Shown here: positions 1-3,000 of the stretch, in pieces | Position numbering within the stretch: position 1 is the stretch's first letter | Layout of the letters: every line of letters begins with the position of its first letter | Assembly: GCF_003018255.1 (NCBI RefSeq) | Contig: NZ_CP027441.1 | From: Escherichia coli | GTDB taxonomy: Bacteria; Pseudomonadota; Gammaproteobacteria; Enterobacterales; Enterobacteriaceae | Strand: one strand, 5' to 3' | Length of the DNA: 64,000 bases | Program-made: the position numbers

Positions 1-3000
1 TATCGCTGGCGTACTGATGCAGGTCCGGCTCAACAAAGGTGGCGGGTTCCAGCTTCAGCGTGGACAGGTCGCACAACTGCCGGTACTCCGCCGGAAGATG
101 CAGTTCCAGAAAATCTCTGGCGACGTCGGGATTCGCCAGGAACGACCGGAACGCGGCATCATGCGGCGTGGGCGTTGTGGTGTTTTTCTTCTTACTCACG
201 GTTCCTCCTGGTGAGATGTCTGAACGTATCCTGCCGCCTGCACAGGCAGACGGCAAGGGTTAATCAGTGGCAGACCCGCTCAATTTCAAGCGCGCGGAGC
301 AGGTGGCCCCATTCGCTGACTTTCATGGCGGGGATACGTACCCGCTTCTGCTCACTGCAGCGTCTGGCGATATGACCGCCCATCGCCAGGACGTCCGGGT
401 TAATCTCATCCGGTGCCAGTTCCTGGCGTCTGAAGCGGGTATGGCGGTGCAGGGGTTTGTTCTCCCGCAGGCACTCTTCACGCAGACGCTTTACATACTC
501 GGCGGTTGCGAAGATAATTGATGGTCTCATGGCATAATCTCCATAGTTAGTGAATGAGATGCCGGACTTCCGTACGGGGAAGCGCCGGCGGAGAAAGGCA
601 GGGTTTATCGCCCTGCCTTTTTTCATTTCGGACAGCGACGCAGTGCCAGCGCGAGCGCTTTCATCTTCCAGCCTTCCGGCGTGCGGTACATCACATTCCA
701 GTAGCCGTCGATGAACACATAATGGAAGCGCACCTCTTCAGTGCTTTCAGTGGCAATAGCCTCCATGAAAGAACGGTACTCACGCGCCTCACTGTCCATC
801 CGGAAACCACTGTCACGTCCGTAATAAGCCGTCACACCGTCCACCGGGTTCTGAAGCGTATGCCCGGCGGGTTTGTCGCAACGGGGACCAAGGCAACGGA
901 TATCACCGTGTTCAACCAGGGCTTCGGCCTGCTGACCGGTGGCATAGTGGGTATGCAGGATGCGACCGTTCCAGGCCGGCTCACCGTGCAGGTGGCAGTA
1001 AACGGTACGGAACACCCCGTCGCGGCAAAAAACAGAAATCGTGCTGCTGACTGTCATGAAAACGTCTCCTTCTGCTGAATCAGGTCGCCGGACCGACCGG
1101 TTGCTCCCCGGAGGGGCGAAAGCCCCTTCTGCCGTCCACTTCTTCGGGGTTTCTCCCCGCAGTGGACCTTTCCGATGGGGCAGCGACAGCCACGGCACGG
1201 GGCAGTTGTCCGGGGGCAGACGCAAAAGTTTTTGACGCTTGCGGCAAAAAGTTTTGTGGCTGGTACATCTCCCCCCTGGACGGCTGACACGTGTTGTGGC
1301 CGCTTCAGCCCCCGGAAAGTCCACAGCGGGAAACAGGCCGCAGGGGTGGCGGCGGAAGGGCAGACAACTGCGCCATCAGGCGCAGTTTCCTTACACACCG
1401 TCAGGTGTGCAGGGAGCGCAGGTCACGGCGCGACAGAGGCGGCGCGACCGGAACGGTCGCTGCAAGCCTGGTTTTTCAGACATCGGACCGTAGCGGCAGC
1501 CCGAAACCGCGCCAGCGGGTTCGGCGGAGACTGGCGGGTGCGCCAGCAGCTGCCTGTCGGAGTCGGGCCTGACGACCGGATGCCGCCAGGCAGCCGGGAG
1601 CCGAAGGGTGTCCCCGCCCCCGGGAGTCAGAACAACAGAAACGACAAAACAGAAAAATGCCTCACACTATGACAGGCAGGAAGGGCAGCGCCGCAGGCGC
1701 GGCCCTCCTGTATTTCAGGCAGGCGTAAGCCTGCCAGGGTTTTCCGGCGGCCCGGCAGGCCATACCCCCGCCGGAGCGGGGGAGTAAATCACCGACGGAA
1801 CACATGACCGTCAATAAAGGTGAAGGAGTCCAGGAATAAATCCCGCGCATACGCCTCATAGTCAAAATAGAGCGCCACCGTCTCCGGCACGTCAGCCAGC
1901 AGGCCGGTATCACTGACGAACTCAACCGCAAAAGCCTCCTCACTGTCAGCCTCGCCCCACCAGGCATCGCGGAAGCTGTCAAAATCCGTCTCACCGGTAT
2001 CATCCACCCAGAGACGATAAGCCTCTTCGCAGCCTTCATCCCGTGCCTGGCGGAAGCCTTCAACCCAGGCCCAGTTGATATGGCATTCAGAGGCCATATT
2101 CCCCGGGAATCCCTCATAATCCTGAAACATCAGTTCAGGATCGGCTTCATCCTGGTGAAGAGCACGGCAGGCGGCGAAAAAGTCGCGCTCATCATCAAAC
2201 GTGGTCAGGTCAAACCAGCGTCCGGCGATGCTTCCACAGTTGTATTTGTGCCAGGTTCCAACGTATACAGCAGGTGCAACAACAGACATTCCCGAATCCT
2301 CCATAGTCACATGTTCTGCGACACCGGGCGGTGCCGTGCCTCCATCTTTGCCGGGCCTGCTGGGATGCAAGGGCGCAAGGGAAGCCGCAGCCCGACGCGC
2401 ACGGCTGACGGGAGTTGGAGGGTGAGACCGCGAAATCTGAGCGGGTGAACGACCGGAAAATCACGGCAGACGGGAAGGAGGGACCGGGTGACCGCAGCGG
2501 TTCATCTTACCTTGCATCCCGCCCGCAGAAGCCCGGCTACGATGGAGGCACGGCACAGCCCGCACACGACGCAGAGGCCACATAACTGAAAACCCACAAG
2601 GCCATGCCCCGCATGGCCGGGTAAAAGCGGAGCCGCCGGCGACTTCCTTATTCCGATGAGAGCAGAGGACACGCCGCATGACCTCCAGACCACCCCTGAT
2701 ATGAAACGATCATGACCGGCATGTCCCTGCCCCTCAAGCATACCTCCACTGGTTCACCGAAGAACATCCGTGATGCTCACAAGTTTTCTGTCGCGCAGCC
2801 AGTCCTGCGCTTCACGCACCACACAACTGTCCGGTTTCACCGCTTTCAGCGATGATGCCAGTCGCTTGATCAACATCACCAGTTCCCGTGTCTGTATGTC
2901 CGGCATTGTCTCCGGCGGAGCAGAGGGACTCTCATTTCCGACGCCCATCCCATGCGCTTCCAGTGTGGCACGGACAAACCAGGCAACATCGACCAGTTGC

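What the first reader, a model, noticed from the sequence alone, without database searches (positions are those of the whole stretch)
264..1057. First-entering genes: His/Cys-rich 144-aa protein and basic 88-aa protein behind a family A hairpin
If transfer enters from the low-coordinate side, these are among the earliest expressed genes, ahead of ardA. The 144-aa product has an unusual density of His and Cys (CHLHGEPAWNGRILHTHY, CLGPRCDK), suggesting metal binding, and no family I recognise. Position and promoter context make it a plausible inhibitor of a host defence or nuclease.
Basis: inference. Interest (0 to 1): 0.5.

Follow-up and report, generated by a model that had tools for sequence, protein, structure and literature searches.

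The report
Plasmid entry-pulse operon: ygcA and ygdA
These are two real, catalogued but functionally unknown plasmid genes that fire briefly when the plasmid enters a new cell; one belongs to a large unstudied family wrongly named "PndC", and the other is a known growth-inhibiting protein that appears to carry a previously undescribed antisense-RNA off-switch.

Summary
Both ORFs are real, on the minus strand. They are ygcA (144 aa, 623-1057) and ygdA (88 aa, 264-530) of the I-complex plasmid leading region. They lie about 3.5-4.3 kb from oriT, so they are not the first genes to enter. Upstream is a homologue of the F Frpo / ColIb ssi single-strand promoter (1111-1608). Published RNA-seq on the 95%-identical pESBL shows a strong early burst from such operons.

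YgcA has no Pfam family or solved relative, yet its model is very confident (pLDDT 96.8). It belongs to a family of at least 1,925 clusters in phages, Firmicutes ICEs and I-complex plasmids. The widespread name "PndC" is unsupported. His22 and His66 are conserved, but the cysteines form no metal motif. The ygcA slot also holds a 52%-identical allele inside 96-100%-identical flanks.

An identical YgdA protein (pMS7163B "810") causes a severe growth defect when induced. YgdA belongs to YdaB/YdfB/YgdA, the largest leading-region family.

New here: a conserved antisense promoter, two hairpins and a terminator (523-628, plus strand) cover the ygdA start site in seven divergent loci. Its template strand does not exist until the complementary strand is made. 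That would confine YgdA synthesis to the single-stranded stage. An anti-defence role remains untested.

The parts
1..199 (-). 5' end of ygdB, the Rpn/YhgA-family (Transposase_31) nuclease gene. It is the next gene downstream of ygdA in the same orientation and runs off the window start.
   Evidence: RefSeq annotation of the 100%-identical record puts the CDS at L001 7273-8199, which is the window up to 199. Pfam PF04754 is recorded at the syntenic gene. An AGGAGG plus GTG start is visible in the sequence.
264..530 (-). ygdA: an 88-aa basic protein (pI 9.9) of the YdaB/YdfB/YgdA family. It is identical to pMS7163B_00810, which is toxic when induced.
   Evidence: (same accession WP_001247860.1).
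490..518 (+). Sigma-70-like promoter antisense to ygdA (TTTACA, 17 nt, GATAAT). It lies inside ygdA codons 5-14.
   Evidence: 10 of 12 matches. The same position relative to the conserved VSI(V/I) and YV(K/Q) codons is seen in six other loci.
523..628 (+). Candidate antisense RNA of about 100 nt. It covers the ygdA start codon (528-530) and Shine-Dalgarno (540-543). It then forms hairpin 1 (561-589) and an intrinsic terminator (stem 597-603/611-617, T-run 618-623).
   Evidence: 18 consensus pairs, 4 with compensatory changes; covariance model: one hit per ygdA-family locus, always antisense, 68-89 bits. No Rfam family matches.
623..1057 (-). ygcA: a 144-aa protein of a large uncharacterised mobile-element family (phrog_1987; family 23 of Samuel et al.). 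It is widely mis-named 'PndC'.
1111..1608 (+). Class-1 single-strand promoter element (Frpo/ssi homologue) on the transferred strand. It includes a long imperfect hairpin at about 1127-1357 and drives ygcA-ygdA(-ygdB).
   Evidence: z = -10.5. (copy at 7269-7768). (matches both Frpo regions of F). (three copies per I-complex plasmid). PMC12672017 reports TSS mapping in pESBL. The exact -35, -10 and +1 could not be assigned here.
1789..2289 (-). ardA (context): an antirestriction gene with its own promoter.
2307..2606 (+). Hairpin upstream of ardA (context). It is a different hairpin family, with a copy at 9053-9352 upstream of klcA. It corresponds to the 'class 2' single-strand promoter of PMC12672017.

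Best explanation
The region is the ygcA-ygdA(-ygdB) operon of an I-complex plasmid leading region. The transferred strand is the plus strand, and it is the template for these genes. When the ssi/Frpo-type element at 1111-1608 enters and folds, host RNA polymerase transcribes the operon from single-stranded DNA. The result is a short burst in the new transconjugant. This has been shown for close relatives and is inferred here.

YgcA is a compact alpha/beta protein of a very large family carried by phages, ICEs and I-complex plasmids. Its near-invariant residues are Tyr20, His22, Asp24 (His here), His66, Tyr79, Arg81, Asp82, Tyr113 and Trp120. This pattern looks like a catalytic or ligand-binding pocket, not a Cys/His zinc finger. 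I infer that YgcA acts on a nucleotide-type ligand or nucleic acid in the recipient, as an establishment or counter-defence factor. Its target is unknown.

YgdA is a small basic protein that inhibits E. coli growth when expressed; this was shown for the identical protein. I propose that its synthesis is limited to the single-stranded stage. A conserved antisense RNA of about 100 nt (523-628, plus strand) overlaps its ribosome-binding site. That RNA can only be transcribed from the complementary strand, which does not exist until ss-to-ds conversion. Conversion would therefore switch the ssi promoter off and the antisense on.
For: Identity and synteny.

Strand logic: the nick-region sequence and gene order are. 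Samuel et al. score families 1 and 23 as T-strand oriented, at median positions 6 and 7 from oriT.

Promoter: DNA fold z = -10.5, repeat copies and homology to F Frpo1/2. Six operons were induced up to about 500-fold, with TSS mapped by 5' RACE, in pESBL. pESBL is 95% identical across this region.

YgcA: 1,925 cluster representatives, conserved columns, and AF2 pLDDT 96.8 / pTM 0.90. It occurs in phages. It also occurs in ICEs next to VirB4, VirD4, MobP3 relaxase, SSB and orphan methyltransferases. There are rare fusions to WYL_2 and gp32-like domains. dN/dS is about 0.2.

YgdA toxicity: with the identical accession shown.

Antisense RNA.
Against: No experiment links YgcA or YgdA to any defence system. 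Insertions in either gene did not lower transfer in laboratory matings.

YgcA departs from its family at three positions that are at least 92% conserved (T3V, D24H, S54R) and at six further positions that are at least 70% conserved. It may therefore have lost or changed the ancestral activity. I could not inspect the model coordinates, so the 'pocket' rests on conservation alone.

The antisense RNA is predicted only. The covariation set has seven sequences from about four independent lineages. The promoter hexamers overlap conserved codons, so their conservation is not independent of the protein.

Toxicity was measured under induced overexpression. The -35, -10 and +1 of the ssi element could not be located in this sequence.
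Confidence: 0.55

Rival explanations
1. YgcA is PndC, the Mok-like translational coupler of the pnd (hok/sok-type) post-segregational killing system, as many database records and two papers label it.
For: The name appears in GenBank and UniProt records. It is repeated in PMC10104558 and in Supplementary Table 1 of PMC11541004.
Against: There is no Hok-family ORF anywhere in the 64-kb window, and no Sok-like or other Rfam match in 1-20,000. In pESBL and pMS7163B the real Hok/Gef gene lies far away, on the other side of nikB-trbABC. YgcA folds as an independent 144-aa domain and has homologues in phages, Firmicutes and archaea. RefSeq has already reverted the name to 'hypothetical protein'.
Confidence: 0.02
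2. ygcA and ygdA form a protein toxin-antitoxin pair of type II layout. YgcA, encoded upstream, would neutralise the toxic YgdA.
For: YgdA is toxic when expressed alone. The order of upstream neutral protein and downstream small toxin resembles type II systems. The two genes are co-transcribed.
Against: The two families are not linked elsewhere. YgdA homologues in IncF plasmids precede DUF3560, SAM- or N6-methyltransferase genes with no YgcA. YgcA homologues in ICEs and phages occur with no YgdA. A 52%-identical YgcA allele sits beside a 95.5%-identical YgdA. Insertions in ygcA are tolerated.
Confidence: 0.07
3. One reading: YgcA is a Cys/His metal (zinc) protein that blocks a host nuclease or defence protein by stoichiometric binding.
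For: His plus Cys are enriched. The gene lies next to ardA in an anti-defence-rich region. The ygcA slot shows allele replacement, as expected for a gene locked in an arms race.
Confidence: 0.1
4. The operon serves plasmid DNA processing in the recipient rather than countering defence. Possible roles are ss-to-ds conversion, recircularisation, or recombination together with the Rpn nuclease.
For: It is co-transcribed with an Rpn-family nuclease. YgcA relatives sit beside SSB and conjugation genes in ICEs. Rare fusions to gp32-like and WYL_2 nucleic-acid-binding domains exist. YgdA is basic, with one weak HU-like Pfam hit in a homologue.
Against: The genes are dispensable for transfer in laboratory matings, and insertions slightly increase recovery. 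YgcA relatives also occur in phages that inject double-stranded DNA.
Confidence: 0.2
5. There is no functional antisense RNA. The hairpins between ygcA and ygdA would be only mRNA stabilisers or an insulator, the promoter-like hexamers would be a by-product of conserved codons, and YgdA toxicity would be an overexpression artefact.
For: The -10 and -35 overlap the conserved codons S-I-I/V and Y-V-K/Q. The evidence is in silico only. The promoter scores are 9-10 of 12. One locus (L093) has a weakened T-run.
Against: In all seven loci the T-run follows the stem only on the antisense strand, and the sense orientation has a poor U-tract. Stem sequences differ but keep pairing, with 4 compensatory pairs. 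No plus-strand gene exists that would need that terminator. The transposon orientation bias upstream of 810 on the native plasmid argues that the toxicity is physiological.
Confidence: 0.25

Closest known systems
Zygotically induced leading-region genes driven by Frpo/ssi single-strand promoters (ssb, psiB and ardA of F and ColIb-P9; pESBL class-1 operons)
   Same: Same plasmid region, same orientation on the transferred strand, and a homologous promoter element. There is published early induction of the syntenic operon in pESBL.
   Different: The products have no assigned function and match no known anti-restriction, SOS-inhibition or SSB family.
hok/sok, pnd and flm type I toxin-antitoxin loci of the same plasmids
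   Same: A growth-inhibiting small protein whose translation start region is covered by a short, structured cis-antisense RNA with its own sigma-70-type promoter and intrinsic terminator. Both are plasmid-borne and enriched in leading regions.
   Different: YgdA is a basic, helical, apparently soluble 88-aa protein, not a Hok-type membrane peptide. There is no mok-like coupling ORF. The toxin mRNA comes from a single-strand promoter, so the logic would be a pulse at entry rather than killing after plasmid loss. The RNA is predicted, not observed.
Transient host-takeover proteins of phages (small, basic, toxic early proteins such as lambda Kil or T4 Ndd; recalled from general knowledge)
   Same: Small size, toxicity on expression, and expression confined to the first minutes after DNA entry.
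   Different: No sequence or structural relationship was tested or found. The target of YgdA is unknown.
Small enzymes and 'sponges' that phages use against nucleotide-signalling defences (Acb1, Apyc1, Tad1/Tad2, Acb2)
   Same: This is a working analogy for YgcA only. The shared features are size of about 140 aa, mobile-element distribution, a conserved polar/aromatic pocket, and location among anti-defence genes.
   Different: No fold or sequence similarity to any of them. No ligand is known. Membership was tested and not met.

Membership tests
PndC / Mok of the pnd (hok/sok-type) system | The ORF overlaps and is translationally coupled to a Hok-family toxin gene. | tested here: not met
   tblastn with the pESBL Hok/Gef protein finds nothing in the window. 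The true Hok genes of pESBL and pMS7163B are at distant loci.
PndC / Mok of the pnd (hok/sok-type) system | A Sok/PndB-type antisense RNA and hok mRNA fold-back elements are present. | tested here: not met
   No Rfam match at E <= 1 in 1-20,000 other than an unrelated weak hit at 11,658.
Frpo/ssi class-1 single-strand promoter operon | Sequence homology to F Frpo / ColIb ssi elements, present as dispersed repeats in the leading region. | tested here: met
   Matches to both Frpo regions of F at 75-94% identity. Copies lie upstream of ssb and of the DUF4942 gene.
Frpo/ssi class-1 single-strand promoter operon | Extensive secondary structure of the transferred strand, with downstream genes templated by that strand. 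| tested here: met
   z = -10.5 for the plus strand. The nick-region orientation and gene order make the plus strand the T-strand.
Frpo/ssi class-1 single-strand promoter operon | Transcription start inside the hairpin, and induction only while the DNA is single-stranded. | not testable with these tools
   Reported for pESBL by RNA-seq and 5' RACE (PMC12672017). I could not place the -35, -10 or +1 in this sequence.
YgcA family (phrog_1987 / phrog_23089; family 23 of PMC11541004) | A significant profile match over the whole domain. | tested here: met
   phrog_1987 E = 2e-20 over residues 1-126. phmmer finds 1,925 representatives.
YgcA family (phrog_1987 / phrog_23089; family 23 of PMC11541004) | The family motifs MxTRS, YCHxDGY, GDxSxL, GH(S/T)F and YGRDRG. 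| tested here: inconclusive
   H22, H66, Y20, Y79, R81, D82, Y113 and W120 are kept. T3V, R4S, D24H, Y26E, S54R, F68L and R83S deviate.
Cys/His zinc-finger or zinc-ribbon proteins | Conserved, paired Cys/His ligands (CxxC, CxxH). | tested here: not met
   Only Cys21 is conserved (83%). The other cysteines vary and no paired motif exists.
Known anti-defence proteins (ArdA, ArdB/KlcA, ArdC, Ocr, anti-CRISPRs, nucleotide sponges) | Sequence or fold similarity to a characterised member. | tested here: not met
Type I toxin-antitoxin module (for ygdA plus the antisense RNA) | The protein inhibits growth when expressed. | not testable with these tools
   Published for the identical protein: p810 gave a severe growth defect with or without the plasmid (PMC10286972; accession identity).
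Type I toxin-antitoxin module (for ygdA plus the antisense RNA) | A cis-encoded antisense RNA with its own promoter and terminator overlaps the toxin's translation start. | tested here: met
   Met in silico only. Position is conserved in 7 loci. The covariance model gives one antisense hit per locus.
Type I toxin-antitoxin module (for ygdA plus the antisense RNA) | The RNA is made in vivo and neutralises the toxin. | not testable with these tools
   Needs a Northern blot or strand-specific RNA-seq, plus promoter mutants.
Type I toxin-antitoxin module (for ygdA plus the antisense RNA) | The toxin is a short hydrophobic membrane peptide, as is typical of the class. | tested here: not met
   YgdA has 88 aa and pI 9.9, with 14 Arg. 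The model has three helices and no hydrophobic span.
Type II toxin-antitoxin pair (YgcA antitoxin, YgdA toxin) | The two families co-occur across elements. | tested here: not met
   Each family occurs widely without the other.
HU/IHF-like DNA-binding proteins (for YgdA) | A significant match to an HU-type domain. | tested here: inconclusive
   One homologue of six hits PF14908 at 7e-4. The window protein does not. The profile search of PDB finds nothing. The AF2 model has pLDDT 70.

The most novel reading that the evidence does not exclude
YdaB/YdfB/YgdA is the largest gene family of enterobacterial plasmid leading regions. It may be an undescribed toxin / antisense-RNA module that works as a timer sensing ss-to-ds conversion. 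The growth-arresting protein could be made only while the plasmid is single-stranded, because the template for its antisense silencer does not yet exist. Next to it, YgcA would be a mobile-element enzyme or ligand binder with no solved structural relative. Its cassette-like allele replacement would reflect an arms race with a recipient defence.
Probability: 0.25. Interest if true: 0.75.

Novelty: new variant of a known kind. Interest (0 to 1): 0.55.

Why it matters
I-complex and IncF plasmids are main carriers of ESBL and other resistance genes, and what they do in the first minutes after entry decides whether they establish.

Three points are of practical use.

1. The label "PndC, post-segregation killing" on about 2,000 plasmid records and in two recent papers is unsupported. 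It has caused this abundant family to be counted as toxin-antitoxin-related.

2. The gene that really is toxic is its neighbour ygdA. This gene belongs to the most abundant leading-region family. It appears to carry a conserved antisense RNA whose strand logic would tie expression to the single-stranded state. This is a simple hypothesis that can be tested directly on existing strand-specific RNA-seq data.

3. YgcA defines a large family shared by phages, ICEs and plasmids. It has a very confident predicted structure but no solved relative, which makes it a good target for structural and anti-defence screening.

Tried and rejected

**Paralogues.** I tested whether the 256-aa leading-region protein at 9448-10218 shares the YgcA domain, prompted by a phage annotation mentioning 'YdfA'. 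hhalign gave probability 0.05, so I rejected this. tblastn for paralogues of either ORF in the window found none.

**Gene numbering.** I first assigned pMS7163B '810' to ygcA by counting genes. The paper's supplementary table shows that 810 is ygdA and 820 is ygcA. My count was wrong and I discarded it.

**Promoter assignment.** I tried to place -35, -10 and +1 in the ssi hairpin by eye and by the consensus scan. No convincing assignment emerged.

**Context.** Metagenome contigs for distant YgcA homologues were mostly too short to be informative. The P0022 allele (79%) looks like a local frameshift and was not used. Domain fusions gave only two single cases.

**Limits and literature.** The structure tool returns no coordinates, so I could not inspect a metal site or pocket. 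Literature searches for ygcA, ygdA, ydaB or ydfB function, or for an antisense RNA at this locus, found nothing.
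Full report
**1. What is there**

The finding's coordinates hold two minus-strand genes with good ribosome-binding sites. A 144-aa ORF lies at 623-1057 and an 88-aa ORF at 264-530. The first 2.4 kb of the window is 100% identical to E. coli plasmid pJNE141411-1 (IncI-gamma/K1 + IncFIB, MOBP relaxase, MPF_I). There both ORFs are annotated as hypothetical proteins WP_000218847.1 and WP_001247860.1. They sit between ardA and an Rpn-family nuclease gene. In records that use R64 nomenclature the genes are ygcA and ygdA, followed by ygdB.

The 144-aa product has 7 His and 5 Cys, 8.3% against 3.8% in the window's long ORFs (p = 0.008). Its pI is 7.0. The 88-aa product has pI 9.9.

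**2. Position and expression**

nikA, nikB and oriT lie about 3.2 kb before window position 1. The nick-region sequence reads on the plus strand, so the plus strand is the transferred strand and the template for these genes. My placing of the nick itself rests on recalled R64/RP4 knowledge.

Five genes enter earlier than ygdA, so 'first-entering' is not accurate. The promoter also lies distal to the genes and arrives only about 1 kb ahead of ardA's own hairpin.

The plus strand of 1058-1790 folds far better than shuffled sequence (z = -10.5). The element 1111-1608 has three properties:
- It recurs upstream of ssb at 7269-7768.
- It recurs upstream of the DUF4942 gene, just outside the window.
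- It matches both Frpo regions of plasmid F.

It is therefore a class-1 ssi/Frpo element. The ardA hairpin (2307-2606, with a copy at 9053-9352) belongs to a different family.

pESBL-EA11 carries the same operon at 95% nucleotide identity. Its YgcA differs at 2 residues and its YgdA at 3. For pESBL, RNA-seq of purified transconjugants showed six leading-region operons induced up to about 500-fold at 15 min. Transcription start sites were mapped inside the hairpins, and the class-1 promoters were the strongest (PMC12672017).

**3. YgcA**

YgcA has no Pfam, NCBIfam or PADLOC match. It does match two PHROG families of unknown function (2e-20, 5e-19). A full phmmer scan found 1,925 cluster representatives at E <= 1e-3.

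The family's distribution:
- It occurs in 65 phage records: jumbo phages of Erwinia, Cronobacter and Serratia, KVP40-like vibriophages, and T4-like cyanophages.
- It occurs in 2,015 PLSDB plasmids, almost all at >= 95% identity and conjugative.
- In 68 genome loci from many phyla, its commonest neighbours are VirB4-like ATPase (21 of 57 loci), VirD4, MobP3 relaxase, VirB6-like protein, SSB, Dcm and N6/N4 methyltransferases, cell-wall hydrolases and integrase. These are ICEs.
- A 43%-identical Salmonella member lies beside ArdC-type genes.

His24 replaces an Asp that is 92% conserved. The other cysteines vary and there is no CxxC pattern. The window protein also departs from near-invariant T3, S54 and other positions. 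It is therefore a divergent member, and possibly has an altered activity.

**4. The 'PndC' name**

Many GenBank and UniProt records call this protein 'post-segregation killing protein PndC'. The label has entered the literature. It appears in the Fig. 7 legend of PMC10104558. It also appears in Supplementary Table 1 of PMC11541004, where family 23 (2,203 members, median position 7, T-strand) is filed as 'Hok/Sok TA related'.

Several results contradict the name:
- There is no Hok homologue in the window.
- There is no relevant Rfam hit.
- The real Hok genes of pESBL and pMS7163B are elsewhere.
- The protein is an independent domain with relatives far outside the Enterobacteria.

The name is unsupported.

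**5. Allele replacement**

A contig with the same I-complex leading region carries a YgcA that is only 52% identical, in exactly the same slot. Nucleotide identity is 96-100% on the ardA/hairpin side and 94-97% across ygdA. Within the ORF boundaries it falls to 54-78%.

Between the two alleles dS is saturated (2.3) and dN/dS is about 0.2. For ygdA dS is 0.18, and for ardA it is 0. This points to an old, selected allele swapped in by recombination, not to decay. The pattern fits a gene that faces a variable partner, but it does not say which partner.

**6. YgdA**

The word-index search found only close relatives. More than 3,000 records match at about 45% identity over residues 29-88. A profile search gave 476 clusters named YdaB or YdfB where named at all. 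This is family 1 of PMC11541004, the largest leading-region family (4,739 members, median position 6).

In IncF plasmids the homologue precedes DUF3560, SAM- or N6-methyltransferase genes or antirestriction genes.

The TraDIS study of pMS7163B reported several relevant results:
- Its supplementary table gives pMS7163B_00810 = c(73277..73543), the 88-aa gene. It bears the same protein accession as the window's ORF.
- Transposon insertions upstream showed an orientation bias.
- Induced p810 caused a severe growth defect with or without the plasmid.
- Insertions in 810 and in 820 (ygcA) were not depleted by conjugation, at log2FC +1.13 and +1.30.

No Pfam, PDB or PHROG relative exists apart from one weak HU-like hit in a homologue. 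The AF2 model is three helices at pLDDT 70.

**7. A conserved antisense RNA candidate**

On the plus strand, inside ygdA codons 5-14, lies TTTACA-17-GATAAT (490-518; 10 of 12 matches). A transcript from it would have four features in order:
- It would start near position 525.
- It would cross the ygdA start codon and Shine-Dalgarno.
- It would form a GCCGG...CCGGC hairpin (561-589).
- It would end at a GGCAGGG/CCCTGCC stem followed by TTTTTT (597-623), which abuts the ygcA stop codon.

No plus-strand gene needs that terminator.

The same layout is present in six other family loci, including 40-45%-identical ones from pO157, Lelliottia, Serratia and metagenomes. The promoter sits at the same place relative to the conserved VSI(V/I) and YV(K/Q) codons. 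The two hairpins and the T-run lie on the antisense strand only.

RNAalifold on the seven sequences predicts 18 pairs, four of them with compensatory changes. A covariance model finds exactly one match per ygdA-family locus, always antisense (68-89 bits). It finds none in F or elsewhere in the window. Most of those loci were in the training set or are near-identical to it. No Rfam family and no paper in the library describes this RNA.

The template for this RNA is the complementary strand. It therefore cannot be made until the incoming strand is converted to duplex, which is also when the ssi promoter shuts off. That would confine YgdA to a brief pulse. This is inference and needs an RNA experiment.

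**8. Verdict**

Three parts of the interpretation stand: early genes of unknown family, a possible His-based site, and a plausible role at establishment. A defence-inhibitor role is untested. The Cys/His zinc idea is not supported, and the toxic partner is the small protein.

The genes are catalogued, and published expression and toxicity data exist for close or identical relatives. The corrected annotation, the family's breadth and its lack of a solved structural relative, the allele cassette and the antisense module are new here.

Noticed in passing
window 4555-6320 (- strand): The ParB-like gene yfhA is disrupted in this plasmid. Residues 1-351 and 414-652 of the pESBL protein map to two different reading frames, and about 62 residues are missing. 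RefSeq annotates no CDS here. [quoted passage not shown]
   Followed up: partly
window 15269-15385 and 16381-16513: Two arrays of an 8-nt tandem unit (TTATCTTG) lie about 1.05 kb apart. They look like iteron or centromere-type repeats. They were not examined.
   Followed up: no
window 199-264 compared with L015 16341-16906 (pESBL) and L091 22711-23100 (pMS7163B): The 129-aa gene ccgAII lies between ygdA and the Rpn gene in pESBL, pS68 and pMS7163B. It is absent here, so ygdA is followed directly by ygdB.
   Followed up: partly
window 2307-2606 and 9053-9352: A second hairpin family, 95% identical between its two copies, lies upstream of ardA and of klcA/ardB. It corresponds to the 'class 2' single-strand promoters reported in 2025.
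   Followed up: partly
L001 6226-6557, window 1111-1608 and window 7269-7768: Three direct copies of the Frpo-like element lie within about 9.5 kb. PMC3817090 describes deletion of a 9.7-kb leading-region module, with the deletion junction lying in such repeats. This arrangement may therefore make the ygcA-ardA-psi-ssb block prone to loss.
   Followed up: no
L025 1811-2593 and related ICE loci: In Clostridia ICEs the gene just upstream of the YgcA homologue is often a 261-aa protein starting MPNWVCN (phrog_12644, function unknown). From memory this N-terminus resembles DUF1281 proteins, which are also annotated in the IncI and IncF leading regions. The link was not tested.
   Followed up: no
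PMC10286972 supplementary table (pMS7163B_00780 to 00800, equivalent to the Rpn gene and its neighbours just before window position 1): Insertions in the Rpn nuclease gene and its two small neighbours were enriched after conjugation (log2FC +2.8 to +3.2). This suggests these early genes cost transfer or establishment in laboratory matings.
   Followed up: no
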